Shown here in pieces: positions 35,594 through 56,872 of a stretch of DNA of 64,000 nt. Each line of letters begins with the position of its first letter. The first letter of the stretch is position 1. The position numbers and the translations under genes are program-made. This DNA is from Candidatus Omnitrophota bacterium. Its GTDB lineage: Bacteria > Omnitrophota > Gorgyraeia > Ghiorseimicrobiales > Ghiorseimicrobiaceae. The stretch is taken from assembly GCA_030681595.1 (NCBI GenBank), contig JAUXSB010000003.1, positions 31,207 to 95,206 on the forward strand, in the 5' to 3' direction. Under the pieces are notes generated by a model that saw only the letters and a program-made list of their open reading frames with translations, searched no databases and was not told the DNA's origin.

Positions 35594-35607
35594 AAATTAC
35601 CTTTGCA

Positions 35608-40650: not shown

Positions 40651-40681
40651 ACATCTATCCTAACCTTAATTATCCGTTGTC

Positions 40682-41614: not shown

Positions 41615-41618
41615 GTTT

Positions 41619-42644: not shown

Positions 42645-44734
42645 TAATTTTCTATCGGCTTTAAATCAGAAAACGAATAAATTAATGCGTATTCTCGCCA
42701 TACGCCATTACAAAAATTATATAAATTACATTTAACACAATTTGGCCCCTTAATTTTGCCTAAATTTAAATTATTTTCCCGCGAATTAAATCTTAAAGTA
42801 TTTTCGGTATATTCCACACATTGGCTAAGGTACTTATGCCATCCTCCTATACATAACGGGACACCGCAATATGGATTAAATATCATTAAATCACATTTTT
42901 TAGCCAGCTCGACTGCCTTTTTGATATAGGGAGAGATTATTCCATATGACGGTATAAGATACTTATTTATTAATGCCCGCTCCCGCGGCTGGATAACCGA
43001 AAGCGAGATATTTTTAATTTGGGGAAATTTATTATGAACAAATTTTATGTATTCGGGTAACTCTTTGTAATTTTGGGTAGTTATAACCGGATTTAAGGTA
43101 ACATCAATATTTAATTCTAATGAATTCCTAATCCCTGCGATAGCCATATCGAAGGCACCCTCCAACCCTACCAGCTTATCATGAATTCCAGGTACTGAAG
43201 AATGCAGGCTAATAAATAGCTTATTCAGCCCGGCATATTTCAATTTTTTTAAATAATCGTTATCGGATAGCCTTATCGCGTTAGTTTGAACCTGAACTAT
43301 TTTTACTCCTTTTCTATGGGCATATTTTATCAACTCCGAAAGGTCTTTTCTCAGGGTAGGCTCACCGCCGGTAATATCCAACTCCAACCTTAATTCCTTA
43401 TCAAGTGCGGTCAAGCGGCCTATTTCAAGTTTAGCCTGTTTAGTCGAAAGCTCTTTTAGAGCATACGATTCCGGAGGAACATTACAAAATAAACATCCGG
43501 CATTACACGCTGAGCCTAATCGTAAAAGCTTATATGGGGAGTTTTTCTTGACATCACCAATACTAATTTTCTTTAACCCGGCTTTAATCGGTGATAAAAC
43601 CTCAAATCCGTGCTTACGGATATAATTACACTGCATTCCAGCACAGCCTGCCATATGTTTGCACTCCTTGCATCTTTTACTTTTCAAAAAATATCTGTGT
43701 TGAATATAAAAATCAAGAAACTTTAAAATATCTTTATTTTTTTGGTCATTTTGCACATATACTGCCGGCCTGCCCGAATATCCCGGTTCATTTATTTCCC
43801 CTAAACAAAAAGGGGAGGCATGCGAAAGTATTTTATTTTTTTTCTTTAATTCTATTAAATCCTTACAAAAATTTTCTAAAAAACAAAACCGGCACCTCAA
43901 GCCTTTACAATCCATCACTTTGCCTTTAAAAAGAAAATTATTAAACATATCCTTGCGGCCGCCTACTTCATCGTATAATTTAGCCGGGTGCTGGATTAAA
44001 TATTCAAATCCTTCAAGATACTGCGGGGGGAAACGATTTGTCCATATATGTAGCCGCGGATCTTTGGATAGCATAAAAGCTTTGCGCAAAAATTTAATTG
44101 ATTTTTGAATATCATAAAAGAGAATATCCCTCTTAGCCCATGCTTGCCCAAATGGGATAACTTGCAAAAGATCAAACTCATATACGCCCAAATTAATAAA
44201 GAATTCTAAAATACTTGCTAAATACATTACATTAATTTTGTTTATCACAATATCAACACTAACAATCAAATCTTTTTCTTTTAAAGCATTAACTAAGGCT
44301 ACTAACGACTGCTGAAATGATCCCGGTACTTTAGTTTGTTGATCATGAAGCCTGCTATTATGCCCATGCAGCGAAAAGGTTATTTCTGATACACCGCTTT
44401 CTATTGCCTGCTTTAAGAAGCTCTGGTAGGCAAACATCCGGCCATTGGTAATAACTTGAATATGGCTGTATCCTAATGTCCTCGCCATATTAACAATATT
44501 AAAAAAATCCGGATGGATTGTTGGTTCTCCCCCGCTTAAAACAACTCGTCTTATCCCTAAACCTCTGCCTTTTTGTAAATCGGCTTTGATCTTCTCTAAA
44601 GGGATTACGCTCCCATCATGGGCTTCTTTATCTAAACAAAAGAGGCAGCGGTTATTACAACCCCGGGTTAGCCGTACCCAGTGTCTTTTTACCTGTGGTA
44701 TAATTTCTCGTTGCATAGAATAGCCTTTTATCAT
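42644..44734 (-). CDS. tandem-fused double radical SAM protein (two complete paralog-family modules)
   Basis: 696 aa. Module 1 has CNNRCLFC...SLHGHNSRLHDQQT...CKECKHMAGCAG. Module 2 has CNAGCLFC...SLHSSVPGIHDKL...VPLCIGG...CVKCNLYNFCNG. Confidence 0.75.
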   Translation of the reverse strand: MIKGYSMQREIIPQVKRHWVRLTRGCNNRCLFCLDKEAHDGSVIPLEKIKADLQKGRGLGIRRVVLSGGEPTIHPDFFNIVNMARTLGYSHIQVITNGRMFAYQSFLKQAIESGVSEITFSLHGHNSRLHDQQTKVPGSFQQSLVALVNALKEKDLIVSVDIVINKINVMYLASILEFFINLGVYEFDLLQVIPFGQAWAKRDILFYDIQKSIKFLRKAFMLSKDPRLHIWTNRFPPQYLEGFEYLIQHPAKLYDEVGGRKDMFNNFLFKGKVMDCKGLRCRFCFLENFCKDLIELKKKNKILSHASPFCLGEINEPGYSGRPAVYVQNDQKNKDILKFLDFYIQHRYFLKSKRCKECKHMAGCAGMQCNYIRKHGFEVLSPIKAGLKKISIGDVKKNSPYKLLRLGSACNAGCLFCNVPPESYALKELSTKQAKLEIGRLTALDKELRLELDITGGEPTLRKDLSELIKYAHRKGVKIVQVQTNAIRLSDNDYLKKLKYAGLNKLFISLHSSVPGIHDKLVGLEGAFDMAIAGIRNSLELNIDVTLNPVITTQNYKELPEYIKFVHNKFPQIKNISLSVIQPRERALINKYLIPSYGIISPYIKKAVELAKKCDLMIFNPYCGVPLCIGGWHKYLSQCVEYTENTLRFNSRENNLNLGKIKGPNCVKCNLYNFCNGVWREYALIYSFSDLKPIEN

Positions 44735-45693
44735 TTAATTGCCCTGAATTCGCCCCAGCCAACCTTTTCGGCATAAAGATTATCTATACCGCTGCATTTA
44801 TAATAATATTTGCATGGTTTACAGCTTTTATTTTTTATATTCCTTGATTCACGAGGTAATATTTCTACTCTTTTATTTTTAACCTGAAGTGGGATTTCGG
44901 ATTCCCCGACGTAATTTTCATAACCTACCATCAAACAAAGCGGCACAGGAGATATCTGTATAACGCCGGATAATCTAAACAGCTTATCTACTTTTAACCT
45001 ATCAATTACATTCCTAACTTCTTTAGCTACATCCAAATAAGTAACAAATAACTGACTGAAGAATCTTTCTGCGTTGCCGGAATACATTGGCATATTTAAC
45101 ACAATGCTATCTACTTTATTAAACGGTAAGATTTTTCTTAAGAAATTTTCAATATCTCTGTAGTTAATTTTTGTCATGGTAAAATTAACATTAAGCCGAA
45201 ATCTATATTTTTCCTTTAAAGAGACCATGTTGCATAACCCTTGCCATGTTTGTTCAAATGCACCGCTGCTACGAGTTAAGGCATCATGGATTTTTTTATT
45301 ACTCCCGTGAAGAGAAATATTAATCTCATTTAGCCCGCTATCTAATAATTCAATGCAAAAGTTTTTATATCTTAATAAACGCCCGTTTGTCTGTAGGCAA
45401 ATATCTTTATATCCCCACTTCTTAGATAATCTTATGAAATAAAGTAAGCCCTTATTCAGCGTTGACTCTCCCCCCGTAAATGATATGGAATCGACTTCTT
45501 TTGTTTTTCTTCCATCTCTTTTAAACATATCCAGATTTAAAAATGGTTCTCCGTTGACACTGCAATAATATTTTGACAACATATTCTGGCCATTAATACA
45601 ATCGCGATCACAGCAAAAAATACAATTATTGTTACAACACCCGCTGGTTTTAATATGAATTCTACTATCAGGGCTTATAATTACGTTATCCAT
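44731..45693 (-). CDS. radical SAM protein, island paralog family
   Basis: 320 aa with CNNNCIFC, FTGGEST, SLHGSNKKIHDALT, and C-terminal CKPCKYYYKCSG...VGWGEFRAIK. Confidence 0.7.
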   Translation of the reverse strand: MDNVIISPDSRIHIKTSGCCNNNCIFCCDRDCINGQNMLSKYYCSVNGEPFLNLDMFKRDGRKTKEVDSISFTGGESTLNKGLLYFIRLSKKWGYKDICLQTNGRLLRYKNFCIELLDSGLNEINISLHGSNKKIHDALTRSSGAFEQTWQGLCNMVSLKEKYRFRLNVNFTMTKINYRDIENFLRKILPFNKVDSIVLNMPMYSGNAERFFSQLFVTYLDVAKEVRNVIDRLKVDKLFRLSGVIQISPVPLCLMVGYENYVGESEIPLQVKNKRVEILPRESRNIKNKSCKPCKYYYKCSGIDNLYAEKVGWGEFRAIK

Positions 45694-45696
45694 TCT

Positions 45697-47055
45697 CTAA
45701 CGGTAAAAAAATAATGCGTAGATATATTTTTCTTCCGGCTTATCAAAATAAAAACAAATGTAATCATCAAAAATCTTTATTTTTCCAAGCCGCTTTAAAG
45801 CGTAAATAGCATAAGGAAAGGCAACAAAAATACTTGTACCAAACACAGCCTCAAATATTTTTTGAGGAACCTTGGATTCTAAGGCTAAATGATTTATTAT
45901 AAATTTTATCATCGCCTCTTTTTTCCTTAATATTCTACCCTCATATATTTTACTATCAAACTCAAAATGCCTCGGTTGCTTAACTTGACGATACTCCAGC
46001 ATACCATGTATATACGACCTGGAAAATGTTCCCAGGCCAAAGGTACACCCTGCGTATTCACCGGAATAATCTTGGGAAAAACTAGAGTCAAGATGTTCCT
46101 TATGGCGAAAGCCCCAATGGAACCTGGCAGGGTCAAAAGAGTCCGCTACATAGCCGAATTTCCGGCTTAATACACGCATAATTTTTAATGCCCGTGAAAT
46201 CATGGATGGATAATGCTTTTGAAAATAATCTGCGCGGCTCATCTTGAAATATTTACGCAGATATCCGTCATTAGGCGGCATTAAACCATAGACAACGATA
46301 TTATAAGGCCTTAATTTAGCAATTTCAGAAAAACTTTTTGTAAAGCCATTTGGGCTATCCCCTGCGAGACCGGCTATTAAATCGACACTAATATCCCTAA
46401 AACCATTTTCTTTTACCAGCCCAATTGCTTTTTTAATGCTCGCGTAATCCTGATAGTCCCTTTTATGAATTTTTAAAACCTTAGCATTTAAAGTTTGCAC
46501 GCCAAAACTAACTCTATTAAATCCAAAATGCTTAAGTAAGCTCAATCTTGAATTTCTTGTACTGCCTGGATTACATTCGGCTGTTTTTTGGCTATCGCCA
46601 CAAAATGAAAAATACCGGAAAAGATTTGTGAGAACCTTATCAAGTTGTTTGCTGTTTAAAATACTTGGTGTACCGCCTCCGACATAAAGATTACGGAATT
46701 TAATTTGGCTGAATGTATCGGAAAAAAAACACATATTCTCAATCAAATAATCCACATACCGGTCTATCTCTCTCCTGTCTCTTGCTGTCTGCGAAGGATA
46801 CGAACAATAAACACATTTTGACTGACAAAATGGGATATGGATGTAGAAATCGATATCGCACGGGTTGTTTTTATTTTTAGCATACTGGATAAATTTAGCC
46901 CAATAATCTTTAATTAGGCGGGGGCTAATCTGCCGGTTATAATCGGAATATGTATGCAGTTGATTAATATCATAAAAATAATCCCTCCGCCTAAGAATAT
47001 TTTCAAAATACGACACCTCATTCCTTAATATTTTTAAAATGTTGTTATCGCTCAT
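45697..47055 (-). CDS. HemN/HemW-like radical SAM protein (class-C-like)
   Basis: 452 aa with YIHIPFCQSKCVYCSYPS signature. Confidence 0.7.
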   Translation of the reverse strand: MSDNNILKILRNEVSYFENILRRRDYFYDINQLHTYSDYNRQISPRLIKDYWAKFIQYAKNKNNPCDIDFYIHIPFCQSKCVYCSYPSQTARDRREIDRYVDYLIENMCFFSDTFSQIKFRNLYVGGGTPSILNSKQLDKVLTNLFRYFSFCGDSQKTAECNPGSTRNSRLSLLKHFGFNRVSFGVQTLNAKVLKIHKRDYQDYASIKKAIGLVKENGFRDISVDLIAGLAGDSPNGFTKSFSEIAKLRPYNIVVYGLMPPNDGYLRKYFKMSRADYFQKHYPSMISRALKIMRVLSRKFGYVADSFDPARFHWGFRHKEHLDSSFSQDYSGEYAGCTFGLGTFSRSYIHGMLEYRQVKQPRHFEFDSKIYEGRILRKKEAMIKFIINHLALESKVPQKIFEAVFGTSIFVAFPYAIYALKRLGKIKIFDDYICFYFDKPEEKYIYALFFYR

Positions 47056-47063
47056 ATGAATAA

Positions 47064-47990
47064 CTAAATAGGGCTTAATTCTTTATCGCCAAATTCTTTA
47101 TAATAACGCTTAAATATTCCCCCGCAGATATTCTTCTTTGCGCAACGCTGGCATACAACTGTATAGATCCTCCCCCTAACCGGCCTGTACGAATGCGTAA
47201 CCTTAAGAAATCTTTGGCTACTTCTATGCATCTTTTCGATTGTCGTCCGGGGAGACCACCAAAGATCATTAGAACAGCCCTGATAATTATTCAATATACA
47301 AAGCGGTATCCCAAAAAATCTAACAACCAAAGAATTCCTATCGGCTTCGGATATAATTGTTCTAATGTTTTCTTTAATTAACTTAAGGGGCACGGATAGC
47401 TCGCAAAAATTATCCAAAGCATTGCCTTCAGGAGCAATATTAGAAATGAGTATCTGCTTTATTTTTTTGAAATTAGAGATAAATTTGATTATGCGATCTA
47501 GCGATCCAAAATTATACCGCGTCAATACGATATTAACAATGCCGAATATGTCTTTCGGATGCCTATCTATATTTTTTAACGCACGAAGCAAATTATCAAA
47601 ACTATGTTCGTTATTTGTATGAAAATTATGGAGTTTAGCGCTGTGGCCATGCAAAGAGAAGCAGAACTCATCAACATAATTTAAGGCCTCCCGAGTGAAA
47701 TCTTTTAAATAAAATAATCCTCCGTTACTCGTAGTATAAGTTTTATAGCCTTTAGTTTTTGCTAATTTAACTATTTCCACAAAATCGGGATGAAAAGTCG
47801 GTTCTCCTCCGGTAAAAGTAACATGATTAATTCTTCCCTTGTGATATTTTTCCAAAACGTTATTTACAACCGATTTCGGCAAAAAATACCCTTTAAACTT
47901 TATTAGCTGCTTATGCTCACTGCAAAAAATACAGTTATTTACGCAATCATAGGATATATGCAATTCTAATCGTTGTATATTATTTTCCAT
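47064..47990 (-). CDS. radical SAM protein, island paralog family
   Basis: 308 aa with CVNNCIFC, FTGGEPT, SLHGHSAKLHNFHT, and C-terminal IPLCIL...CQRCAKKNICGG...FGDKELSPI. Confidence 0.75.
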   Translation of the reverse strand: MENNIQRLELHISYDCVNNCIFCSEHKQLIKFKGYFLPKSVVNNVLEKYHKGRINHVTFTGGEPTFHPDFVEIVKLAKTKGYKTYTTSNGGLFYLKDFTREALNYVDEFCFSLHGHSAKLHNFHTNNEHSFDNLLRALKNIDRHPKDIFGIVNIVLTRYNFGSLDRIIKFISNFKKIKQILISNIAPEGNALDNFCELSVPLKLIKENIRTIISEADRNSLVVRFFGIPLCILNNYQGCSNDLWWSPRTTIEKMHRSSQRFLKVTHSYRPVRGRIYTVVCQRCAKKNICGGIFKRYYKEFGDKELSPI

Positions 47991-47994
47991 ATCA

Positions 47995-48912
47995 TTATTT
48001 AATCGGCTTTATTTCGCGATCACCATAATATTTTAGGTATATATCCCAAACACCTTTACACTTATCAGCAATCTTACAAAATAAACATTTTCTAATTTTT
48101 ATTCGATTAATTATTTTTTTTGACTCGATATTTTCGTACTGTTCAATTTTATTTTTAGATATCAACCGAGGCGTACTTTCAAACGAATATTCATTTTCCT
48201 CGATAGTACCGGATATCTGCTTAAGATAGTCCCCAAAATAGCATAAGCAGGGAACATTTAAAGCCGCATAGCTAACCTCATCATCTAACCGCCCAATATC
48301 TAAAAATTTGCGAATATAATACGCGGCTGTAGAAATACGCGGCGTATATTTATAAAAATCACGCGGGGAACTAACATAAATGAGGCATGCCGTTTTTATC
48401 CCAACACGATAGATTAACTTACCTATATCATATAAATATTTATAATTCTGCTTAACAATTACCGTGTTTGTACCTATATTATCAAACCCGAATTTCCTAA
48501 GGTTGGCAATCCCTTCCTTAAGATGTTTAAAGCTCCCCTCTACCTGCGATAGATAATCGTGTAATTTTGCATTATGCCCGTTGATCGTAAAGATTATACG
48601 AGAAATTCCTGCCTCAATAGCCCTACGAGTAAAATCTTCATAAGAGAAAAACCTGCCATTTGTAGTCAAAGTGATATTTTGAAAACCTATATTTTTGGCA
48701 AATTTTAGCAAATAAAAAAAGTCCGGCCTAATCGTAACCTCCCCCCCGGCAAAAAAAGCATCAACAGCCCCAGCTTTTTTCGCTTCTTTAATCTCCCGCA
48801 TTATTTCCTGTGTCGTTTTAACAGGAATACCCCTATATGCCCTATCGCCGCAAAAACGGCAATAATTATTACAGGAATAACCGGTAAGAAATTTTGCTGT
48901 TTTATCTTGCAT
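47995..48912 (-). CDS. radical SAM protein, island paralog family
   Basis: 305 aa with CNNYCRFC, FAGGEVT, TINGHNAKLHDYLS, and C-terminal CLFCKIADKCKG...YGDREIKPIK. Confidence 0.75.
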   Translation of the reverse strand: MQDKTAKFLTGYSCNNYCRFCGDRAYRGIPVKTTQEIMREIKEAKKAGAVDAFFAGGEVTIRPDFFYLLKFAKNIGFQNITLTTNGRFFSYEDFTRRAIEAGISRIIFTINGHNAKLHDYLSQVEGSFKHLKEGIANLRKFGFDNIGTNTVIVKQNYKYLYDIGKLIYRVGIKTACLIYVSSPRDFYKYTPRISTAAYYIRKFLDIGRLDDEVSYAALNVPCLCYFGDYLKQISGTIEENEYSFESTPRLISKNKIEQYENIESKKIINRIKIRKCLFCKIADKCKGVWDIYLKYYGDREIKPIK

Positions 48913-48922
48913 TGATAATAGT

Positions 48923-50455
48923 TTATTGCTTGGAGTTAGAGTTGAAGCACCGATTGTACTGCCCGCATTCTCGGCAAAATCCCCGCCATAAGTTTAAATT
49001 GAGATTATCCACCATAAGGCGACTTTGTGTTAACGCCGCAAGATATTTCGATTTCTTATAAATACAATAGATCTCGGAATGATACAACTTCAAAATTTCG
49101 CTGATATCGGCTTCGGAAAAAAATTCTGTGCAATATGGGATGACGGATAAATTAGATTTGGAGAAATTATAAAAATCCTTTAAGGAATTTACTTTACTTA
49201 ATACTCCGTATTTTTCTGGATAAAGGAATAGTGGAGAAGCAGGGTCAATCGCAGTTGAGTCCTGGCGTATTTCAACATTCGCTAATCTATTCCGTATGGA
49301 ATTAATGAATTTTAATGTTTCATATATATTTTTTTTTGTTTCAAAAGGCAAACCCGCGGAAAACGATAAGCATAATTTAAGATTTTTTTTATTGGCATAC
49401 AATAAAATCTCTAATATTTCATTATTTGAATAGCCCGCCTCTTTATTCATTTTCCTGATTTTTCGCGATCCGCTTTCTAAAAAAATTGAAATAATTGACC
49501 CCCTTTGAAATGTTTTCGCGAATTCGTCAATAAATACCTTTGTTGATAATCTGCAATCACCAAAATTTATAGTTAGGTCGATTTTATTTTTCCGTATTTC
49601 TTTAAACAAATCCATAAAATATGCATCATTCTGGCTCACCGCATACATATGCAGTTTATTGATATTATATTTTTTCAGTCTTTTTAAATCCTTAATCACA
49701 TATTTCACATCGGCAAAAACAATTTTACTTCTCTTGTTAATATTTTTTTGGGCCGAACACCCTCCCCCACAAAAAGAACAGCTCCTGACGCATCCCCGGC
49801 TAGCAGTATAATAAAATATTGGTTCGCTATCCTTATTGTTTAAATCCATAGAGAAGAATCTTATATATTTATCGTGGTTACGAATAAGTTTAAAGTTCGC
49901 ATATGATAATCTGTTAATTATGGCTTTGCCGGCAACATAAGTATGGGGGTTTTCAACTATGCCTTCACCGTCTCTCCATACCAAGTTCGGGATAAGGCGC
50001 AACCCCTCCGGAGATTTACTTCGGATACTATTTAAAAGCGCTAATAAAGGGATTTCCGCATCACCCTTGATGACAAAATCTATTTCTTTATATGTACGCA
50101 TAATTTCAGTGGCGAAAAGTGAAGCCGTCATCCCGCCTACTATCACCGTAATCTTTTTAATCCCGCGTTTTAAATATTTAATCGCCTCCAATACTTCGTA
50201 TGTATGCTGATACCAATGAAGATCAAATAATACTGCCCAATAACCTCTACTTATAACAAAATTTTTCAAGTCAAAACTGGGATTTAAGCTTTTTTCCAGG
50301 CCCAGATGAATAATAGACGGTTTAAAGCTATTTTTTGATAAATAGTCTGCGATGCCTATCATGCCGCGAGGCATCAATTTTATGCTAGGATTTTTCCCCT
50401 CTCTGGATACATGGACAAAACAAACTTTATTATTAAGCTTAAGGTTAGCAGCCAT
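48923..50455 (-). CDS. B12-binding-domain radical SAM protein (class-B-like)
   Basis: 510 aa with an N-terminal Rossmann-like cobalamin-binding region (IVGGMTASLFATE...FVIKGDAEIPL) and CVRSCSFC. Confidence 0.65.
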   Translation of the reverse strand: MAANLKLNNKVCFVHVSREGKNPSIKLMPRGMIGIADYLSKNSFKPSIIHLGLEKSLNPSFDLKNFVISRGYWAVLFDLHWYQHTYEVLEAIKYLKRGIKKITVIVGGMTASLFATEIMRTYKEIDFVIKGDAEIPLLALLNSIRSKSPEGLRLIPNLVWRDGEGIVENPHTYVAGKAIINRLSYANFKLIRNHDKYIRFFSMDLNNKDSEPIFYYTASRGCVRSCSFCGGGCSAQKNINKRSKIVFADVKYVIKDLKRLKKYNINKLHMYAVSQNDAYFMDLFKEIRKNKIDLTINFGDCRLSTKVFIDEFAKTFQRGSIISIFLESGSRKIRKMNKEAGYSNNEILEILLYANKKNLKLCLSFSAGLPFETKKNIYETLKFINSIRNRLANVEIRQDSTAIDPASPLFLYPEKYGVLSKVNSLKDFYNFSKSNLSVIPYCTEFFSEADISEILKLYHSEIYCIYKKSKYLAALTQSRLMVDNLNLNLWRGFCRECGQYNRCFNSNSKQ

Positions 50456-50800
50456 TTAAAAGCGTGAAAATGTGTTTTCTTTCGAATAAATACGCAAATT
50501 ACTGTGAATCATTTTTTTAAATTTACGGTTATCCCCCTAGGTGTTTAAAAGTATATCCCGTATAGACGAAGAGGTTTTTCCGATATCATCCAAACTTTTT
50601 ATATCATTCACTGTGCCAAAATAAAATTCTCTTTTTAGCTTTTTAAATTTAGTCTCAAGCAATGGCCCCCCACAAAATATATCCCCCCGTCGCAATCAAC
50701 AGCCGGTTCAGAAGATATGATCCGCTCACCTTCCCGAATTTTGAAATTCGCTATAAAATTAATAATCTATTGATACTGGGTAAAACTTGCGTATCCATAA

Positions 50801-51742
50801 TCATTTTATCGGCTTTAATTCTGAATCGCCGTATAGCTTATAATAAGGCCGAAAAATTCCTTTGCAAAAATTATTTTTTTTACATACCCTGCATAATCTG
50901 GTTTTAGCGGCCATTGGGGTAGAGCGATTAATTTTTCGCAGGCGCAAAGAACCTTTCTTGTACTCCATTCTATCGTATTGCTCGTTAGCCTCTGCACTAC
51001 AATCATCTATATTGCCTGAAAAATCAGGCAGTACACAAGAAGGAACCCCAAAAATCCTGATATTCATCTTCAGGATTTGAGCTAAATTAAAAATGAGATG
51101 CGCTTTTTTTTCCCATTTACTTAACCTTACCGTATATTCCATGATAAATTTTTTATTTGCCGTTACGGGGACCATATTTGAAAATAACACCCTCTTTACT
51201 CCCAAATTATGCAACCCTATAATTATATCTTTTAAATATGGAAAATTATATTTTGTGACTACGGAGTTAGTTAATAAGTTAATTCGCGGATTTATGTCCA
51301 GGATATTCCGTAAGGCGCCGATTACTTTTTTGAAACTTCCGGGATTATTGGTATGACTATCATGAAGCCCAGCATTATGGCCATGCATAGAAATAACTAT
51401 CTCATCAATAAATGGGACTACCTTAGCCGCGAAAGAATACGAACTAAGCATAACGCCATTAGTGTTAAGATGCACCTCAAAACCATGGCTTTTTGCGGCA
51501 TAAAGAACATCGAAAAAATACGGATACAGCGTCGGTTCTCCCCCGGTAATAAATAGTGAACTATATTTCCCGGAATTTTTTTTAAAGAATGCGGTAATCC
51601 TATTCAAAGCAAAAGGTTGTAGGCTAAGATTCTCCTGTGCTCTGTTATCGGCTTCCAAACAAAAATCGCAATTGTTGGTACAGGCATAAGAAAGCATTAT
51701 TTCTAAGCGCTTTATTTGCTTACTCTTCTTCAATGTATGCAT
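50801..51742 (-). CDS. radical SAM protein, island paralog family
   Basis: 313 aa with CTNNCDFC, ITGGEPT, SMHGHNAGLHDSHT, and C-terminal VPSCVLP...CRVCKKNNFCKG...YGDSELKPIK. Confidence 0.75.
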   Translation of the reverse strand: MHTLKKSKQIKRLEIMLSYACTNNCDFCLEADNRAQENLSLQPFALNRITAFFKKNSGKYSSLFITGGEPTLYPYFFDVLYAAKSHGFEVHLNTNGVMLSSYSFAAKVVPFIDEIVISMHGHNAGLHDSHTNNPGSFKKVIGALRNILDINPRINLLTNSVVTKYNFPYLKDIIIGLHNLGVKRVLFSNMVPVTANKKFIMEYTVRLSKWEKKAHLIFNLAQILKMNIRIFGVPSCVLPDFSGNIDDCSAEANEQYDRMEYKKGSLRLRKINRSTPMAAKTRLCRVCKKNNFCKGIFRPYYKLYGDSELKPIK

Positions 51743-53114
51743 CTAAGTCTTGATGTTCTATATCATTAATTCTACTTTTAGCAACAGAATACTTACTTTT
51801 AAAAATATTCATAACTTTTTTGCTGTAAAAAATTTTGGATAAGATAAAATACTGTTTTTTATCCTTAAAATTTGGCCGAAAAATTAAACTGCTGTCTAAA
51901 CAATTTAAATTTCGCTTTAAAAAACTAATTTCTTTTTTAAAGGCCGGATTAAAATCAACGCCAAACAGCTTAAAAAACTTTCTTTTGTTTATCCCTTGAT
52001 AAAGAAACTTAATAATATAATATCTGCTTTCTTCATCCCTGTTCATTTTATAGCCATTATATAACTGGGCTGATTTAAAATAATTATTAATACCGGTTGA
52101 TAAACGGTAACATCTGTTTGCAAACGCATAAGATATCGCGCCGTATCCTAAGCCCAAAATAGATACCTTAAAATCTGGGGACTCAAATAAATTAATCTGC
52201 GGGTTTATTGCTTCCTTTGATAAAGCCGACCCTGCGCGGCCGATGCTTTTATAGCCAGAAAATTTCTCTAAAATATTTCTCTTGATATCAACCATCATCT
52301 TCCTTCTTCTTATGTCGCGTTGCGTAAATTTAAAATTTTTCCTTGAAAATAAGGTATTTTTATCTGGCAAAAAAGGATTAACATGAATAATATCGGGGTG
52401 CAATTTAACAACCATCAATAATGATTTAACGAATGACTGTATTGTCTGCCCCGGTAAGCCAGCCATTAAATCAATATTCAAATACGGAATGCCTATTTCT
52501 CTTGCCTGAGTAAACGCTCGGTAAACTGAATCTCGGGTTTGTTTTCTCGCCATCTTTACCAATACTTTTTTATCCAGTGTTTCTACGCCGATAGTCAGGC
52601 GCTTTAATCCTAGATCCTTAAGTAATCTTAACTTACCGCTATCAAGAGAATTCGGATGCGCATCAATGGCGAATAAAAAATAATCCTCAAAGCAGAACTT
52701 TCCTTTTATGTATTGAATCAAATCTGCAATCTGCTGGTTTCTCAATACAGTCGGCGTGCCTCCTCCTATATATAAAGAACTAAATTTAATGCCCCTGAAT
52801 AGGCTATGAAAAGAATCGATTTCTTTCTTTAAAGCTCCCAGGTAAGTATCAAGCTGAGAGAAACTCGATAGCGGGAAAGAAACACAATTACAATAAACGC
52901 ATTTTGTCTGGCAAAAAGGAATATGTATATAAAGGCATATTTTATTAAGACGGGGGTCTCGCTTTAAATTACGGGCAACGTTTTTCCATGATTTAATAAT
53001 CTCATCCTTGCTAACATTAGACCAAATCAAAGGCGGAGGATATAATACGGGATAACCATCTTCCAAAGAATGCAATGTGATATTTGTAAAAAGCGCATTA
53101 TCCATAATATCCAT
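51720..53114 (-). CDS. HemN/HemW-like radical SAM protein (class-C-like), second copy
   Basis: 464 aa with YIHIPFCQTKCVYCNC signature. Confidence 0.7.
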   Translation of the reverse strand: MDIMDNALFTNITLHSLEDGYPVLYPPPLIWSNVSKDEIIKSWKNVARNLKRDPRLNKICLYIHIPFCQTKCVYCNCVSFPLSSFSQLDTYLGALKKEIDSFHSLFRGIKFSSLYIGGGTPTVLRNQQIADLIQYIKGKFCFEDYFLFAIDAHPNSLDSGKLRLLKDLGLKRLTIGVETLDKKVLVKMARKQTRDSVYRAFTQAREIGIPYLNIDLMAGLPGQTIQSFVKSLLMVVKLHPDIIHVNPFLPDKNTLFSRKNFKFTQRDIRRRKMMVDIKRNILEKFSGYKSIGRAGSALSKEAINPQINLFESPDFKVSILGLGYGAISYAFANRCYRLSTGINNYFKSAQLYNGYKMNRDEESRYYIIKFLYQGINKRKFFKLFGVDFNPAFKKEISFLKRNLNCLDSSLIFRPNFKDKKQYFILSKIFYSKKVMNIFKSKYSVAKSRINDIEHQDLDAYIEEE

Positions 53115-54082
53115 TAATTAATAGACGTGAAATCGTCAACGCCAAAATTATCGATATAATCTTTATATGGCCCGATACAGCTGTTCCTTCTCTTGCAATC
53201 CAGGCATTTATCAATCGGGGGATTTTGAATAATTACCTCCTTAGCATATAAATTGGGGTAAGAATCTAAATTTAAAACTTTTTTATCAAACGCAATACAA
53301 AATGGAAGTTCGGAAGAAGCGTCGTTTAGTTTACCGAATCTCTCCAAAACACAAACCGGAAAACCACGGAGAAATTCTTTTGACTTTTTTAGCTTGAAGA
53401 ATAAATTACGATACGGAACCATTAAATCCTTATAGTTAATGTCCTTGGGAAATGGATGAAATTTAACATGGATGAACCCATCAAAAAAAAATCTTGGGAA
53501 GGCATAATTACAAAACCCGAGAATATCATCTAAAAAACAATAATTTTGCTTTAATACAATGGAATGAAGATTGATATTCAACTCCCTAATCTTATTTAAT
53601 GCGCGTAAAACGCTGACAAGCGCTTCAAATGAACCTTTTTTCCGGACAACTCTGTCATGCACTCTAGCATCGGCGCCATAAATCGGTATATAGAAATTAA
53701 ATTTTAAAGGCAGACGCAAGATATTATCTAATGTATCTTTTTGTCCTAATTTTAACCCGGAAGTATGCAGATTGACTTCTTCATAGCCAAGCTTATGGCT
53801 AAAATTTAAAATTTGCGCTATAAATGGATGTGCCAGAGGCTCATCACCGCTTAAAAATATCTTTTTTAACTTTAGCCGCCTTCCAATGGCTAAAAGCCCT
53901 TTTATCCTAAACAATTCGCTATTAAGGCTATTATTTTTAATTTTACCCGGCTTACCGGGATAATTGGAAGTGCAAAAAATACAGTCATAGTCGCATTTAC
54001 TTGAAATTGGCAGAAGCGCATATTCAATTTTATTTAAAAGGGGCAAATTCTTTGTCACCATAGATTTTAAGGTATTCTTCAA
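53114..54082 (-). CDS. radical SAM protein, island paralog family
   Basis: 322 aa with CDYDCIFC, LSGDEPL, and C-terminal FPVCVL...CLDCKRRNSCIG...FGVDDFTSI. Confidence 0.7.
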   Translation of the reverse strand: MKNTLKSMVTKNLPLLNKIEYALLPISSKCDYDCIFCTSNYPGKPGKIKNNSLNSELFRIKGLLAIGRRLKLKKIFLSGDEPLAHPFIAQILNFSHKLGYEEVNLHTSGLKLGQKDTLDNILRLPLKFNFYIPIYGADARVHDRVVRKKGSFEALVSVLRALNKIRELNINLHSIVLKQNYCFLDDILGFCNYAFPRFFFDGFIHVKFHPFPKDINYKDLMVPYRNLFFKLKKSKEFLRGFPVCVLERFGKLNDASSELPFCIAFDKKVLNLDSYPNLYAKEVIIQNPPIDKCLDCKRRNSCIGPYKDYIDNFGVDDFTSIN

Positions 54083-54977
54083 AGATTCCTCCGCATACAG
54101 AAAATAGCCGGCATTTTATACATTTAGCGATTTTTATTCTCGACATATCAATTATATTGCTGGAAAAATTTGATATTGATTTTCGCGTGCTTATTTCCCT
54201 ATTCCAAAGGCACATTTCTGAGTCATTCTTAAACCTTTTACCTATCCTCATCTCTGGCTCATAAACTTCAAAAGCATACATAAAATTATCCTTGCCTAAA
54301 ATACATAACGGCACGCCCCCGAATCTTAACGGTATCCCGGATTCTTTTGAATATTCTGCCAATTTAAGGATATATTGCTTAAGCTTACTAAAATTTACTA
54401 CTAAATTTTTATAATCGTTTTTCGCATTTCCGCTAGGGACCAAATTTAAGTACCTTACGCAGCGGGGGCTATATTTAGACACGACTTTAAATATATCCAG
54501 CAATGACGCGGCATTATGTTTTGTTATGGTTACATTTACAAGAAATGCTTTTTTATAATATTTCCTAACATTTTTAAAAGCTTTTATCAATATCTTAAAA
54601 CTATTCTTATTGCCGGTATGTAAATTATGCACATATTCATCCGGGCCTTGTATTGAAAGGCACAAATCGTCGATATATTCAAAAGCCCTATTGCAAAAAA
54701 CTTTATCGGTAAACATAACACCATTCGATATAACATAAATTTGATAATTTAGATTTTTTGCGGCATGTAAAATTTCAAGAAACTTAGAATGCAAAGTTGG
54801 TTCTCCTCCCATAAAATGGACTAAACGCGCTCCCCGCTTTTTCTCTTTTTTCAGAACTTTTATTATAAATCCAAACGGGAGTTCACTATTATCAAACCTT
54901 GAATTCTCGCTGCAAAAAATACAGTTATTTGAACATTTATTCGCGATAAATAATTCTATCCTGTTTATTTTAAACAT
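54030..54977 (-). CDS. radical SAM protein, island paralog family
   Basis: 315 aa with CSNNCIFC, FMGGEPT, SIQGPDEYVHNLHT, and C-terminal VPLCILG...CIKCRLFSVCGG...YGDKEFAPFK. Confidence 0.75.
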   Translation of the reverse strand: MFKINRIELFIANKCSNNCIFCSENSRFDNSELPFGFIIKVLKKEKKRGARLVHFMGGEPTLHSKFLEILHAAKNLNYQIYVISNGVMFTDKVFCNRAFEYIDDLCLSIQGPDEYVHNLHTGNKNSFKILIKAFKNVRKYYKKAFLVNVTITKHNAASLLDIFKVVSKYSPRCVRYLNLVPSGNAKNDYKNLVVNFSKLKQYILKLAEYSKESGIPLRFGGVPLCILGKDNFMYAFEVYEPEMRIGKRFKNDSEMCLWNREISTRKSISNFSSNIIDMSRIKIAKCIKCRLFSVCGGIFEEYLKIYGDKEFAPFK

Positions 54978-55977
54978 ATGATTTATGTTTTATGGAAAAA
55001 TGCAGGTCTGCCTTATAATTCATGCCCTGATTTCGTTTCCTGTCCGTACTGATAATGCATGGATACATAACAAAATCATTTTTATCGCAAATTTTAATAA
55101 GATCTTCAATCGCGTTAAGATGAGATCTTAAATTCCAGCATTTCAAAAAATTAAAAATCTCTTTGTACGAGCTACTGAAATCGGAAATATTGTTTTCGTA
55201 AATTTTTAATATTTTTAACGGAATAAGGTGGCCGCCCTTATCAAAACGGTATGCGATTTGGTAAAAAGCGGACTTTTCTTTTGTGAATTTTTCAAAGAAA
55301 TTTTCAAAATAAGCATACTGCCGCCAAGTAAGCAGGTCTCTATACCTGCCTAAACTCAAATGCTTTGAATAATTGTATATTTTAATGCTGTATGTTGAAT
55401 CGCAAAAAAAATCTATCCCAATAACACTTATTAAATAATCTTTTAAGGCAGTAATAATATCTTCGCCATTAAAATTTATAATTTTACTAATAGTTGAAAT
55501 TTTGTTAAGCCTGCTCTTTTGAGAATCAGAAATGAGTAATTCTTCTAAGTATATTTTTAATCTTGGGTATGAGCCTATAGGCCAATCCATGCCGAATGTG
55601 GTCTGATGTTTATCCCTAACTTTTATCGCATTGAAAATCTCTTTAAGCTTGAGTGTGTTGTAGCGTGTTTTATAATTATAATTCAATACGTTAAAAGCAT
55701 TAATTATTTTTTTATCAAATGATTGTTTTTCATTATAATTGTTGTAGGTAAACCTAAAATTTGAAATATGGTCATACCCTTTGATTAAAGAAAAGGAAAA
55801 GTCAAATTTAAAATGCGCCGGGACATCTCTATGGTTGGAATGTTTTATTATCGAATCTTTTACTGCGCTTACAACTTTTTTATTAATGCTACCGCCTATC
55901 TCGCCTAACAGATAGCCTATAATATTCGAGATGGATAAAAAAAATAAACGATTTCTATTTATTGCGCTATCGCCCAT
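54970..55977 (-). CDS. hypothetical protein (non-rSAM) embedded between rSAM genes
   Basis: 335 aa, Asn/Tyr/Phe-rich, no recognisable motif; overlaps both neighbours by 8-11 nt. Confidence 0.3.
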   Translation of the reverse strand: MGDSAINRNRLFFLSISNIIGYLLGEIGGSINKKVVSAVKDSIIKHSNHRDVPAHFKFDFSFSLIKGYDHISNFRFTYNNYNEKQSFDKKIINAFNVLNYNYKTRYNTLKLKEIFNAIKVRDKHQTTFGMDWPIGSYPRLKIYLEELLISDSQKSRLNKISTISKIINFNGEDIITALKDYLISVIGIDFFCDSTYSIKIYNYSKHLSLGRYRDLLTWRQYAYFENFFEKFTKEKSAFYQIAYRFDKGGHLIPLKILKIYENNISDFSSSYKEIFNFLKCWNLRSHLNAIEDLIKICDKNDFVMYPCIISTDRKRNQGMNYKADLHFSIKHKSYV

Positions 55978-56872
55978 ATTTTTTTAGGACAGGGACAAAT
56001 TCTGACCAGCCAAATTTTTCAGGATACTCTTTCCACGGCCCTTCACAAATTTTATAATGATAGCAATGCCTGCAAGACAAATTCTTCGCTTTTCCTTCTT
56101 TTTTACGTACTTTCGTAAAATCATCGATAACCTTTCCAAGGTCATAAATTATTGTTTCGGGTATAATCTTTTCAGCGATATAATCTTCATAGCCTTGCAT
56201 GAAACAATAAGGTATTGCTTCTGTCATGACTTTTTTATTAGCCTTGATACCTATACCCAAACCTTCCTTAACATAGGGCATAACCATTGAAATTCTCGGC
56301 ACAACAGAATAAAAATTATCGCCTGCCGAACCGGCAGCATGGACAAATGCAAATTGAAATTGGTCAACGCCAAGTTTTACCAAAAGCTCAGCGATTTGCG
56401 CTAGATGCCTATAATTAGGTTTAGTAATAACCGTGTTAGTGATTACAGTTTGATTTCGTTGTTTTAAATTTATTATTCCCGCGACAGTCTCGTTAAAGCT
56501 GCCGGCAGAAGAAGTCAAATAATCATGGACTTGGGCGATATGCCCATGGAGTGCCGGAGAAAATTCATTCGCCCCTGCGGCAATAATTTCATCGCAAAAC
56601 TTTTTATAATAGAATATCCTGCCGTTAGTTTGTATTTGGATAATTTTAAATTTCAATCTTTTGGCATGGCCAACCAAATCTAAAATATCGCTTCGTATTG
56701 TAGGCTCGCCTCCGGTAAAAACAACCCCATCGCAGTCTCGCCTGGCATCCTCTAAAATCTTCTTTATAGCAAGAGTATCTTTATCGCTTTGCAGGTGTCT
56801 CTTCTTGCCCTGGACGCAAAACCGGCAATGGTTATTGCAAGCAAATCCGATTTTAATATCAACTCTTTTCAT
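55967..56872 (-). CDS. radical SAM protein, island paralog family (close paralog of 39763-40650)
   Basis: 301 aa with CNNHCRFCVQGKKR, FTGGEPT, ALHGHIAQVHDYLT, and C-terminal IPYCFMQ...CRHCYHYKICEGPWKEYPEKFGWSEFVPV. Confidence 0.75.
   Translation of the reverse strand: MKRVDIKIGFACNNHCRFCVQGKKRHLQSDKDTLAIKKILEDARRDCDGVVFTGGEPTIRSDILDLVGHAKRLKFKIIQIQTNGRIFYYKKFCDEIIAAGANEFSPALHGHIAQVHDYLTSSAGSFNETVAGIINLKQRNQTVITNTVITKPNYRHLAQIAELLVKLGVDQFQFAFVHAAGSAGDNFYSVVPRISMVMPYVKEGLGIGIKANKKVMTEAIPYCFMQGYEDYIAEKIIPETIIYDLGKVIDDFTKVRKKEGKAKNLSCRHCYHYKICEGPWKEYPEKFGWSEFVPVLKKYGR

What the first reader, a model, noticed from the sequence alone, without database searches (positions are those of the whole stretch)
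45697..53114. Class-B-like (B12-binding) and two class-C-like (HemN-like) rSAM genes interleaved in the island
HemN-like rSAMs (YIHIPFCQ(S/T)KCVYC at 45697-47055 and 51720-53114) are the scaffold of class C radical SAM methyltransferases. The B12-domain rSAM (48923-50455) resembles class B methyltransferases. Both act in RiPP tailoring, for example thiopeptide and proteusin pathways. Their presence suggests C-methylation steps on top of whatever the twitch-family paralogs do. They could equally be genuine coproporphyrinogen-oxidase-type enzymes, but two copies plus a B12 enzyme inside a maturase island argues for tailoring roles.
Basis: partly seen in the sequence, partly recalled or inferred. 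Interest (0 to 1): 0.55.

Follow-up and report, generated by a model that had tools for sequence, protein, structure and literature searches.

The report
HemN-like and B12 radical-SAM maturases
Two HemN-like genes and one B12-domain radical-SAM gene lie inside an 18-domain enzyme island that modifies a His-Gly-Ser-repeat peptide in an Omnitrophota bacterium; they are real, do not look like heme enzymes, and the HemN-like pair belongs to an uncurated clade that travels with, and is sometimes fused to, the island's other enzymes.

Summary
There are three intact minus-strand ORFs: two HemN-like radical-SAM (rSAM) proteins (452 and 464 aa, both with YIHIPFCQxKCVYC) and one B12-domain rSAM protein (510 aa).

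The island (about 36-61.6 kb, 35% GC against 42%) is an expanded His-Xaa-Ser (Hxs) system. It holds HxsD, an HxsD-like protein, HxsB, a 98-aa HxsA4 precursor ending in (HGS)n-HGQW, 13 HxsC-like rSAM domains and accessory proteins.

Both HemN-likes score below every curated cutoff (HemN, HemW, HemZ, ChuW, STM4012). They lack HemW's HNxxYW motif but keep the HemN fold (TM 0.75-0.79 to 1OLT) and most two-SAM contacts. Their clade lies in Hxs-type rSAM islands in 11 of 13 loci. About 18 of 145 representatives are fused to HxsC-like domains. A heme role is therefore very unlikely, and they look like core partners rather than add-ons.

The B12-domain protein has class-B architecture (closest folds TsrM, MgmA, TokK, CysS, but also cobalamin-free AprD4). 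Its link to Hxs islands is looser.

C-methylation or other one-carbon transfer to the His-rich core is plausible but untested. I rate this a new variant of a known kind, of moderate interest.

The parts
51720..53114 (-). HemN-like rSAM protein W464 (464 aa). Hxs-island clade, sub-lineage with the fourth Cys (CxxxCxxCxC).
   Evidence: AF2 pLDDT 91, and Foldseek gives 1OLT at TM 0.75/0.79. Residue mapping. Clade placement.
45697..47055 (-). HemN-like rSAM protein W452 (452 aa). Second sub-lineage (with P0019/P0029), 29% identical to W464, no fourth Cys.
48923..50455 (-). B12-binding-domain rSAM protein (510 aa). N-terminal Rossmann-like domain, CVRSCSFC core, C-terminal CRECGQYNRC tail.
57829..58125 (-). 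HxsA4-type precursor (98 aa). Leader, hydrophobic segment, then a core ending HGSHGSHGSHSSHGSHGQW. This is the presumed substrate.
   Evidence: NF038313 HxsA4 scores 60.7 bits against a cutoff of 55. Homologous precursors occur in L002, L005, L008, L011.
58892..60361 (-). HxsB rSAM/SPASM maturase (489 aa).
   Evidence: TIGR03978 scores 490 bits against a cutoff of 370.
60542..60967 (-). HxsD (141 aa).
   Evidence: TIGR03976 scores 55.4 bits against a cutoff of 50.
60352..60561 (-). HxsD-like small protein (69 aa).
   Evidence: NF038315 scores 64.8 bits against a cutoff of 41.
56859..57839 (-). rSAM protein of about 326 aa, PapB/SCIFF-maturase-like N-half. The mechanical ORF runs on to 57959 and overlaps the precursor in another frame.
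55967..56872 (-). HxsC-like paralog c1. This type adjoins, or is fused to, HemN-clade proteins elsewhere.
   Evidence: HxsC4 166 bits, HxsC 104 bits, both below cutoff..
54970..55977 (-). Orphan 335-aa protein with five internal repeats. A homolog follows the HemN-like gene in L002, and a similar domain is fused N-terminally to a HemN-clade protein (P0007).
53114..54977 (-). HxsC-like paralogs c2 (54030-54977) and c3 (53114-54082). The c3 stop overlaps the W464 start.
50801..51742 (-). HxsC-like paralog c4. Overlaps the 3' end of W464 by 23 nt.
47064..48912 (-). HxsC-like paralogs c5 (47995-48912) and c6 (47064-47990), lying between the B12 gene and W452.
38795..45693 (-). HxsC-like paralogs c7 (44731-45693), fused c8-c9 (42644-44734), c10 (41619-42644), c11 (40682-41614), c12 (39763-40650) and c13 (38795-39766).
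36033..38770 (-). Distal accessory genes: a 356-aa protein (weak DUF483), a 161-aa TPR protein, and a 307-aa membrane protein with a weak prepilin-peptidase A24 match (candidate leader peptidase).

Best explanation
The three genes encode accessory or core radical-SAM enzymes of a greatly expanded HxsA4-type His-Xaa-Ser peptide-maturation island. They are not heme enzymes.

The two HemN-like proteins belong to a distinct, uncurated clade of the HemN superfamily that works with HxsC-like rSAM enzymes. Inference: they bind two SAM molecules, cleave the first, and turn the methyl group of the second into a SAM-based methylene radical. That radical then acts on the (His-Gly-Ser)n core of the 98-aa precursor. 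The most likely outcome is transfer of a one-carbon unit (a methyl group or a methylene bridge) to an sp2 carbon, such as a His imidazole or the conserved C-terminal Trp.

The B12-domain protein has class-B architecture. It most likely performs a cobalamin-dependent methylation of the same peptide. This is less certain, and the protein's association with the island is looser.

Shown here: family, fold, retained cofactor-binding residues, operon embedding, conserved synteny and gene fusions. Inferred: the substrate and the chemistry.
For: Island identity:
- HxsB, HxsD, the HxsD-like protein and HxsA4 all pass their curated cutoffs.
- There are 13 HxsC-like domains with intact CxxxCxxC.

Not heme enzymes:
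- Scores are HemN 138-153 bits against 325, HemW 140-152 against 205, HemZ 150-169 against 321, and ChuW 122-123 against 400.
- The HemW HNxxYW motif (PMC10114718) is absent.
- No heme genes lie in the other 35 kb of the window.

Catalytic competence:
- The full HemN fold is predicted (TM 0.75/0.79 to 1OLT over 438 columns).
- HemN Y56, H58, the three cluster Cys, GGGTP, R184 and D209 are kept.
- NocN SAM-II contacts Y34, Y96, R153 and D196 are kept in both proteins. Position 96 is Tyr as in NocN; it is His in HemN and Phe in HemW (contacts taken from PMC12871812).

Dedicated to Hxs-type islands:
- 11 of 13 independent loci place a clade member among HxsC-like arrays and/or HxsA4, HxsB and HxsD.
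- HxsA4-type precursors occur in L002, L005, L008 and L011.
- About 18 of 145 clade representatives are fused to HxsC-like domains, and 8 are tandem HemN-HemN fusions.
- A c1-type HxsC-like gene adjoins the HemN-like gene in L002, L008 and L010 and is fused to it in P0265 and P0268.

Chemistry:
- Characterised class C enzymes transfer one-carbon units to sp2 carbons (PMC12871812).

B12-domain protein:
- Its top folds are the cobalamin-dependent methylases TsrM, MgmA, TokK and CysS.
- Its N-domain has near-invariant residues: H15, H80, W81, GG107-108, D126 and GDxE.
- Close relatives lie in the Hxs-type islands L004 and L005.
Against: - There is no direct evidence of methyl transfer.
- Class C methylases are polyphyletic, and HemN uses the same intermediate only to abstract hydrogen (PMC10114718).
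- W452 lacks the NocN S225 equivalent (it has Val), and its HemN F310/Q311 region cannot be aligned. W464 has D for E145 and E for Q172.
- The canonical four-gene HXS system installs a +8 Da (+C/-4H) change without any HemN-like enzyme (PMC13128918).
- Two of the 13 loci (L009, L013) are not Hxs-type.
- The B12 domain scores just under the Pfam cutoff.
- AprD4, which has the same fold but (from my own knowledge) uses no cobalamin, matches nearly as well (TMt 0.73).
- One 38%-identical relative of the B12-domain protein is a solitary gene (L006).
- No cobalamin riboswitch or cobalamin genes were seen in the window.
- The locus annotation rests on ad hoc HMMs built from this window. The tree is a rough neighbour-joining tree.
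Confidence: 0.6

Rival explanations
1. The HemN-like enzymes act on the Hxs peptide but transfer no carbon. They use the SAM-derived methylene radical, or 5'-dA radical, only to abstract hydrogen, as HemN does. The result would be oxidative chemistry such as desaturation, decarboxylation or C-C/C-N/C-O cross-linking of His and Ser residues.
For: HemN uses the two-SAM intermediate without methyl transfer (PMC10114718). W464 keeps the HemN-type fourth Cys and an N-terminal segment, and its fold is closest to HemN. In sequence searches HemN scores better than NocN.
Against: Position 96 is Tyr as in the methylase NocN, not His as in HemN. All characterised non-heme HemN-like enzymes in natural-product pathways transfer a C1 unit (PMC12871812, PMC10114718). 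The island already holds 15 other rSAM domains of cross-linking type (HxsB, HxsC-like).
Confidence: 0.22
2. The HemN-like genes are genuine heme-pathway proteins that merely lie in the island. They would be a coproporphyrinogen dehydrogenase, a HemW heme chaperone, or a ChuW-type heme-degrading methylase.
For: The best solved relative is E. coli HemN, and the fold is the same. Public pipelines label some relatives 'oxygen-independent coproporphyrinogen-3 oxidase'.
Against: They score below all curated cutoffs and lack the HNxxYW motif. Two divergent copies are translationally coupled to HxsC-like genes. The clade is co-located with Hxs-type islands in 11 of 13 loci and fused to HxsC-like domains. 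No heme genes lie in the window.
Confidence: 0.03
3. The 510-aa 'B12' protein is not a methyltransferase. Either its Rossmann-like N-domain binds no cobalamin (as in AprD4 or the MiaB-type N-domain), or it uses cobalamin for another radical reaction such as a BchE/OxsB-type cyclisation or rearrangement.
For: AprD4 and MiaB are strong fold matches (TMt 0.73 and 0.58). The Pfam B12-binding score is just below the cutoff. The best curated family is TIGR04190, of unknown function, at 175 bits against 500. The RiPP C-methyltransferase model TIGR03975 scores only 55 bits against 282. No DxHxxG motif is present.
Against: The four best fold matches are cobalamin-dependent methylases. PF02310 is annotated in nearly all of the 76 relatives. 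The N-domain carries near-invariant polar and aromatic residues, which suggests a bound cofactor.
Confidence: 0.35

Closest known systems
Canonical HXS (HxsD-HxsB-HxsC-HxsA) antiphage system of Pseudomonadota (PMC13128918)
   Same: HxsB and HxsD pass the curated models. The precursor carries His-Xaa-Ser repeats. HxsC-type rSAM enzymes are present. The gene order starts HxsD, then HxsB.
   Different: According to the paper, 99.8% of canonical systems have only four genes and 99.7% are in Pseudomonadota. This island is in Omnitrophota and has 13 HxsC-like domains, all below the HxsC and HxsC4 cutoffs. It also has an extra rSAM, two HemN-likes, a B12-rSAM and orphan proteins. Its precursor is a short 98-aa HxsA4 type with no detected peptidoglycan-binding domain. 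An antiphage function was not tested here.
Class C radical-SAM methylases in RiPP pathways (NosN/NocN, TbtI)
   Same: They share the HemN-like scaffold. Four of the five NocN SAM-II contacts are conserved, including Tyr96. Both are encoded in a peptide-maturation cluster.
   Different: Sequence match to NocN is modest (E 2.5e-21 and 7e-17 over the rSAM core). These proteins have an N-terminal segment of about 55 aa that NocN lacks. S225 is replaced by a clade-specific His in W464. The substrate is a His/Gly/Ser repeat, not a thiazolyl peptide. No activity is known.
E. coli HemN / CPDH (PDB 1OLT)
   Same: It is the best sequence and fold match (TM 0.75-0.79). Y56, H58, the CxxxCxxC motif, GGGTP, R184 and D209 are kept, and W464 also keeps the fourth Cys.
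   Different: Scores are 138-153 bits against the 325-bit cutoff. The RNFQGY region has diverged. The context is Hxs-type, not heme.
Class B cobalamin-dependent rSAM methylases (TsrM, MgmA, TokK, CysS; PoyB/C-type RiPP C-methyltransferases)
   Same: The three-part architecture and overall fold match, and there is a canonical CxxxCxxC.
   Different: Identity is 12-16%. TIGR03975 scores only 55 bits against 282. The subfamily has its own C-terminal CxxCx5C tail and N-domain signature. Cobalamin binding is unproven.
NCBIfam STM4012 family (NF006067) and TIGR04190 (Ta0216-type B12/rSAM), both uncharacterised
   Same: These are the best curated matches over nearly full length: 151-184 bits for the HemN-likes and 175 bits for the B12-domain protein.
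   Different: All scores are far below the cutoffs (380 and 500), so these proteins are not members. No functional information can be carried over, and no literature on STM4012 was found.

Membership tests
Class C (HemN-like) radical-SAM methyltransferase | HemN-type rSAM core with a CxxxCxxC cluster motif | tested here: met
   YIHIPFCQ(S/T)KCVYC is present. Pfam Radical_SAM scores 62-77 bits. HemN and NocN are the best PDB sequence hits.
Class C (HemN-like) radical-SAM methyltransferase | [quoted passage not shown] | tested here: inconclusive
   NocN Y34, Y96, R153 and D196 are conserved in both proteins. S225 is His in W464 and Val in W452. HemN F310/Q311 is only loosely alignable in W464 and not alignable in W452. 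Actual binding cannot be tested in silico.
Class C (HemN-like) radical-SAM methyltransferase | HemN-like C-terminal domain forming the substrate pocket | tested here: met
   Pfam HemN_C was not detected. However, the AF2 model (pLDDT 91) superposes on 1OLT over 438 of 464 residues. W452 was not modelled. It aligns with W464 over residues 52-422.
Class C (HemN-like) radical-SAM methyltransferase | Transfer of a SAM-derived C1 unit to the substrate | not testable with these tools
   This needs biochemistry and isotope labelling. Phylogeny does not predict it, because class C enzymes are polyphyletic (PMC10114718).
HemN / coproporphyrinogen dehydrogenase (TIGR00538) | Score at or above the curated equivalog cutoff (324.95 bits) | tested here: not met
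   Scores are 138.3 and 153.5 bits.
HemN / coproporphyrinogen dehydrogenase (TIGR00538) | Heme-biosynthesis genomic context | tested here: not met
   The 64-kb window has no heme genes. Clade members lie in Hxs-type islands. The rest of the genome was not available.
HemW heme chaperone (TIGR00539) | Curated cutoff of 205.4 bits, the conserved HNxxYW motif, and no N-terminal extension | tested here: not met
   Scores are 140 and 152 bits. The motif is absent, and an N-terminal segment of about 55 aa with GYxxxYPP..W is present. The motif is taken from PMC10114718.
Class B cobalamin-dependent radical-SAM methyltransferase | N-terminal B12-binding (PF02310) Rossmann-like domain | tested here: inconclusive
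   The score is 31.5 bits against a gathering cutoff of 32.1. PF02310 is precomputed for the identical protein and for nearly all of the 76 relatives. The fold matches TsrM and TokK but also cobalamin-free AprD4.
Class B cobalamin-dependent radical-SAM methyltransferase | rSAM core with CxxxCxxC following the B12 domain | tested here: met
   C222-C226-C229 are invariant across 61 sequences.
Class B cobalamin-dependent radical-SAM methyltransferase | Bound cobalamin and methyl transfer through methylcobalamin | not testable with these tools
   DxHxxG is absent, but this motif is not diagnostic for class B. There is no cobalamin riboswitch.
RiPP maturation rSAM C-methyltransferase (TIGR03975) | Curated cutoff of 281.85 bits | tested here: not met
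   The score is 55.2 bits.
His-Xaa-Ser (Hxs) system | HxsB, HxsD and a His-Xaa-Ser repeat precursor all present | tested here: met
   HxsB scores 490 against 370. HxsD scores 55.4 against 50. The HxsD-like protein scores 64.8 against 41. HxsA4 scores 60.7 against 55.
His-Xaa-Ser (Hxs) system | An HxsC or HxsC4 partner rSAM scoring above its curated cutoff | tested here: not met
   The best single-domain scores are HxsC 104 against 267.9 and HxsC4 166 against 500. All 13 domains are HxsC-like but below the cutoffs.

The most novel reading that the evidence does not exclude
The Hxs-island HemN-like clade forms obligate pairs or complexes with specific HxsC-like rSAM enzymes (the c1 type) and the 335-aa orphan protein. 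Together they insert SAM-derived one-carbon bridges into the His-Xaa-Ser repeats, for example as methylene or methine links between imidazole and neighbouring residues. That would be a new kind of RiPP or protein cross-link. It would also give a chemical handle on the unexplained '+C/-4H' modification reported for the antiphage HXS effector.
Probability: 0.12. Interest if true: 0.85.

Novelty: new variant of a known kind. Interest (0 to 1): 0.55.

Why it matters
The chemistry of the His-Xaa-Ser system is unsolved. The only experimental paper (2026) reports an antiphage effector with an unassigned +8 Da (+C/-4H) modification.

This island, and at least ten related loci, show a much larger version of the system. 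In it, a dedicated HemN-like clade is a conserved and sometimes physically fused partner of the HxsC-type enzymes. HemN-like enzymes characteristically generate a one-carbon radical from SAM.

That gives concrete, testable enzyme-substrate pairs: a 98-aa (HGS)n peptide and defined rSAM modules. It extends HemN-like and class-B-type rSAM enzymes to a new substrate class. It also defines a HemN subfamily that public pipelines currently mislabel as coproporphyrinogen oxidase.

Tried and rejected
- **Cobalamin riboswitch.** I searched the 345-bp gap upstream of the B12 gene and the whole window against Rfam. Only a tRNA at 30839-30926 was found.
- **Promoter and terminator scan, 45-54 kb.** Counts were no higher than in shuffled sequence, so this was uninformative.
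- **DxHxxG motif as a cobalamin test.** It is absent in 60 of 61 relatives, so it is not a usable discriminator.
- **PADLOC-DB (2023).** It has no Hxs models. Only weak, generic pVip-type rSAM hits came back.
- **Genome scan with the 15-sequence clade alignment.** I repeated it with 6 sequences. That returned only 5 clade loci and then HemW-level hits.
- **Clade size.** The word-index homolog search suggested only about 14 relatives. The exhaustive profile search corrected this to at least 145 representatives at 50% identity.
- **The 335-aa orphan protein.** There were no Pfam, NCBIfam or PDB-sequence hits. An L004 ORF I first added to its alignment proved unrelated (15% identity) and was dropped.
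- **Literature.** Searches for STM4012 and for Omnitrophota rSAM islands found nothing relevant.

Full report
**Observation**

The stretch 45697-53114 holds six minus-strand ORFs.
- Two are HemN-like radical-SAM (rSAM) proteins. W452 (45697-47055) carries 'YIHIPFCQSKCVYC'. W464 (51720-53114) carries 'YIHIPFCQTKCVYC'.
- One is a 510-aa protein (48923-50455). It has an N-terminal B12-binding-type domain, scoring Pfam 31.5 bits against a gathering cutoff of 32.1. It has a CVRSCSFC rSAM core (Pfam Radical_SAM 63 bits).
- The other three are rSAM paralogs of about 300 aa.

The best solved-structure sequence match for both HemN-likes is E. coli HemN (1OLT; E 6e-35 and 2e-27). The class C methylase NocN comes next (9p2u; 2.5e-21 and 7e-17). 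The two HemN-likes are only 29% identical to each other.

**What the island is**

All genes from about 36.0 to 61.6 kb lie on the minus strand in a low-GC block (about 35%, against about 42% in the flanks). The island contains:
- HxsD (TIGR03976, 55 bits against a cutoff of 50).
- An HxsD-like protein (NF038315, 65 against 41).
- HxsB (TIGR03978, 490 against 370).
- A 98-aa precursor at 57829-58125, hidden under the mechanical 5' extension of a neighbouring ORF. It ends ...HGSHGSHGSHSSHGSHGQW and passes the NCBIfam HxsA4 model (60.7 against 55).
- Thirteen HxsC-like rSAM domains in twelve genes. All have an intact CxxxCxxC, and all score below the HxsC and HxsC4 cutoffs. They are mutually only 20-36% identical, so they are old paralogs.

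Adding HxsB, a 326-aa PapB-like rSAM, the two HemN-likes and the B12 protein gives 18 rSAM domains in the island. The flanks are housekeeping genes. MtaB and RsmE lie on one side. A YeiH-family transporter, a ROK kinase and an LptD-like protein lie on the other. Further out are hydrogenase, H+-PPase, CTP synthase and chemotaxis genes. No heme or cobalamin genes were found. The identical public proteins come from a 307-kb contig of a Candidatus Omnitrophota MAG.

**The HemN-like proteins**

Against NCBIfam, both proteins fall below every curated cutoff:

| Model | Scores (bits) | Cutoff (bits) |
|---|---|---|
| STM4012 family | 151 / 184 | 380 |
| HemZ | 150 / 169 | 321 |
| HemN | 138 / 154 | 325 |
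| HemW | 140 / 152 | 205 |
| ChuW/HutW | 122 / 123 | 400 |

- Pfam HemN_C is not detected. Even so, an AlphaFold model of W464 (pLDDT 91) superposes on HemN 1OLT over 438 columns with TM 0.75/0.79. All other PDB hits cover only the rSAM core.
- The alignment keeps HemN Y56, H58, the three cluster cysteines, GGGTP, R184 and D209. W464 also keeps HemN's fourth Cys, while W452 has Tyr there.
- The NocN structure paper (PMC12871812) lists five SAM-II contacts. Y34, Y96, R153 and D196 are conserved in both proteins. Position 96 is Tyr as in NocN, His in HemN and Phe in HemW. S225 is replaced by a clade-typical His in W464 (motif PDxxH(V/I)NPF) and by Val in W452.
- HemW's HNxxYW motif (PMC10114718) is absent. 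An N-terminal segment of about 55 aa is present that HemW and NocN lack.

I conclude that these are probably catalytically competent, dual-SAM HemN-type enzymes. They belong to none of the characterised subfamilies.

**Context and fusions**

The word-index search found only about 14 close relatives, none with Pfam HemN_C, before the scores dropped to HemW level. An exhaustive profile search corrected this. At least 145 representatives at 50% identity score 305 bits or more over nearly the full profile, and no score cliff was reached.

I examined thirteen independent loci using HMMs built from the window's own genes. In eleven of them the HemN-clade gene lies among HxsC-like arrays and/or next to HxsA4, HxsB and HxsD.
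- The eleven loci are the window, L001, L002/3, L004, L005, L008, L010, L011, L012, L014 and L015.
- The bins are labelled Omnitrophota, Planctomycetales, Spirochaetes and 'archaeon'.
- L009 and L013 are the exceptions.

HxsA4-type precursors occur in L002, L005, L008 and L011. They share the same leader (..PKIKKxIKxFLLxEEGKISKK..) and carry (H-x-S)n tails ending in GQW, GSW or GGWC. L015 has the leader but a poly-Gly core. L005 is a smaller island at the same RsmE-MtaB locus, so this site appears to be variable.

Gene fusions give independent support. About 18 of the 145 representatives are natural fusions of a HemN-clade domain with one to three HxsC-like domains, in either order. Eight are tandem HemN-HemN fusions.

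The fused HxsC-like domain of P0265 and P0268 is 55-56% identical to window paralog c1 (55967-56872). A c1-type gene directly adjoins the HemN-like gene in L002 (71% identical), L008 (61%) and L010 (49%). L001 keeps the window's order of c3-like, W464-type, then c4/c6-like.

The 335-aa orphan protein (54970-55977) has a homolog immediately after the HemN-like gene in L002. It is also weakly similar (E 3e-4) to the N-terminal extension of the 749-aa HemN-clade protein P0007.

In a rough neighbour-joining tree, the Hxs-linked proteins group apart from E. coli HemN, HemW, a group of about 450-505-aa relatives lacking HemN_C (P0036, P0094, P0117, P0118) and NocN. W464 and W452 fall in different sub-lineages. 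Several islands carry two different copies (window, L002, L008, L010, L011), which argues for non-redundant roles.

Together these results make a heme function very unlikely. The HemN-likes look like a conserved module of HxsA4-type systems rather than late decoration.

**The B12-domain protein**

- About 76 relatives were found, and nearly all are annotated with PF02310 plus PF04055.
- The best curated family is the uncharacterised TIGR04190 (175 bits against 500). The RiPP C-methyltransferase model TIGR03975 scores only 55 against 282.
- The AlphaFold model (pLDDT 92.6) is closest to the cobalamin-dependent methylases TsrM, MgmA, TokK and CysS (E 1e-16 to 1e-19, TM up to 0.67). It also matches AprD4 (TMt 0.73) and MiaB, whose N-domains bind no cobalamin; that last point is my own knowledge.
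- DxHxxG is absent in 60 of 61 members. The N-domain nevertheless has near-invariant H15, H80, W81, GG107-108, T110, A111, S112, D126 and G131-D-x-E-x-P136, which is consistent with a bound cofactor.
- The closer subclade (down to about 35% identity) ends in a CxxCx5C(F) tail that resembles the tails of the HxsC-like paralogs.
- Context is mixed. Close relatives sit in the Hxs-type islands L004 and L005. A 35%-identical relative is in a different rSAM/B12-rich cluster (L007). A 38%-identical relative is solitary in a Latescibacteria contig (L006).
- No cobalamin riboswitch precedes the gene.

The class-B architecture is established. Cobalamin use and methylation are inferences.

**Mechanism**

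Established knowledge:
[quoted passage not shown] This gives a methylene radical.
- HemN uses that radical for hydrogen abstraction.
- Class C methylases add it to sp2 carbons, producing methyl groups, lactone bridges or cyclopropanes (PMC10114718, PMC12871812).

Inference for this island:
- The HxsA4 core consists almost only of His, Gly and Ser, with one conserved C-terminal Trp.
- The imidazole and indole carbons are therefore its only side-chain sp2 carbon targets.
- I consider C1 transfer to these positions (methylation or methylene bridging) the most likely reaction, at roughly 50%.
- HemN-type oxidative chemistry without carbon transfer is the main rival.

The only experimental study of an Hxs system (PMC13128918) reports maturation of HxsA by HxsB and HxsC, an HxsC-HxsD complex, and a +8 Da (+C/-4H) change on an SHRSS motif. 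That system has no HemN-like enzyme, so carbon addition in Hxs chemistry does not strictly need one. The study also shows that canonical systems are four-gene, Pseudomonadota-restricted antiphage modules. Whether the Omnitrophota island serves defence, makes a secreted natural product, or does something else is open.

**Novelty and verdict**

NCBIfam already holds HxsA4, HxsC4 and HxsD-like models, so curators have seen variant Hxs systems. However, no curated model covers the HemN-like clade or the B12 subfamily. I also found no paper describing expanded Hxs islands or their HemN-like partners.

I classify this as a new variant of a known kind. Interest is moderate (0.55). It would be higher if the C1-bridge reading proves true.

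Noticed in passing
window 57829-58125 (-): A 98-aa HxsA4-type precursor ending in HGSHGSHGSHSSHGSHGQW. It is masked by the 5' extension of the 366-aa rSAM ORF (56859-57959), read in another frame. That rSAM probably starts near 57839-57848. The 9-bp tandem repeat at 57838-57893 encodes the HGS repeats.
   Followed up: yes
window 35596-35815: A 44-bp tandem repeat of about 4.2-4.5 copies at 96% identity. Each unit contains the palindrome TTTGGCTATATTGAAAGCCAAA. It lies in the intergenic space at the low-coordinate edge of the low-GC island.
   Followed up: partly
window 54970-55977 (-): An orphan 335-aa protein with no Pfam, NCBIfam or PDB-sequence match and only 3 relatives in 5.8 billion proteins. 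It has five internal 'xGIDF...KIY'-type repeats. From memory these recall ABBA/PT-barrel prenyltransferases; this was not tested. A similar domain is fused to a HemN-clade protein (P0007), and a homolog follows the HemN-like gene in L002.
   Followed up: partly
window 61011-61601 (-) and 58155-58919 (-): Two Cys-rich proteins with signal-peptide-like N-termini (196 and 254 aa) and no family match. One lies just upstream of HxsD and the other between HxsB and the precursor. Weak counterparts occur in L005 and L002. Their role is unknown.
   Followed up: no
window 36033-36956 (-): A 307-aa polytopic membrane protein with a weak prepilin-peptidase A24 match (24 bits). Weakly similar ORFs recur in L004, L005, L010, L011, L014 and L015. 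It is a candidate leader peptidase for HxsA4.
   Followed up: partly
window 50456-50800: A 345-bp non-coding gap directly upstream of the B12-rSAM gene. It is the only sizeable gap in the focal stretch (about 45-54 kb) examined here. No Rfam family (including the cobalamin riboswitch) and no convincing promoter or terminator was found.
   Followed up: yes
window 42644-44734 (-): A 696-aa protein made of two fused HxsC-like rSAM domains. Similar double-domain proteins occur in L004, L008, L009 and L014.
   Followed up: partly
window 48923-48985 (C-terminus of the B12-rSAM) and the C-termini of the HxsC-like paralogs: The B12-rSAM subfamily ends in CxxCx5C(F), here CRECGQYNRCF. This resembles the CxxCx5CxG...Y..YG..EF.PI tails of the HxsC-like paralogs. 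P0015 is a HemN-clade protein that carries such an HxsC-type tail. This may be a shared auxiliary-cluster or docking module.
   Followed up: partly
L005 (JGI 3300032118, 55-kb contig), whole locus: A smaller Hxs/HemN-like/B12 island lies at the same RsmE-MtaB chromosomal locus as in the window. It lacks a recognisable HxsB and has NifH/NifD-like genes upstream. This suggests a variable island site in related genomes.
   Followed up: partly
L015:4969-5379 (-): A precursor with the HxsA4-type leader but no His-Xaa-Ser repeats. Its core ends HDDGGGGGGGGGWC. It sits in a minimal cluster (HxsD, HxsB, a HemN-clade gene, two PapB-like rSAMs, an A24-like protein) with no HxsC-like genes, from a bin labelled 'uncultured archaeon'.
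   Followed up: no
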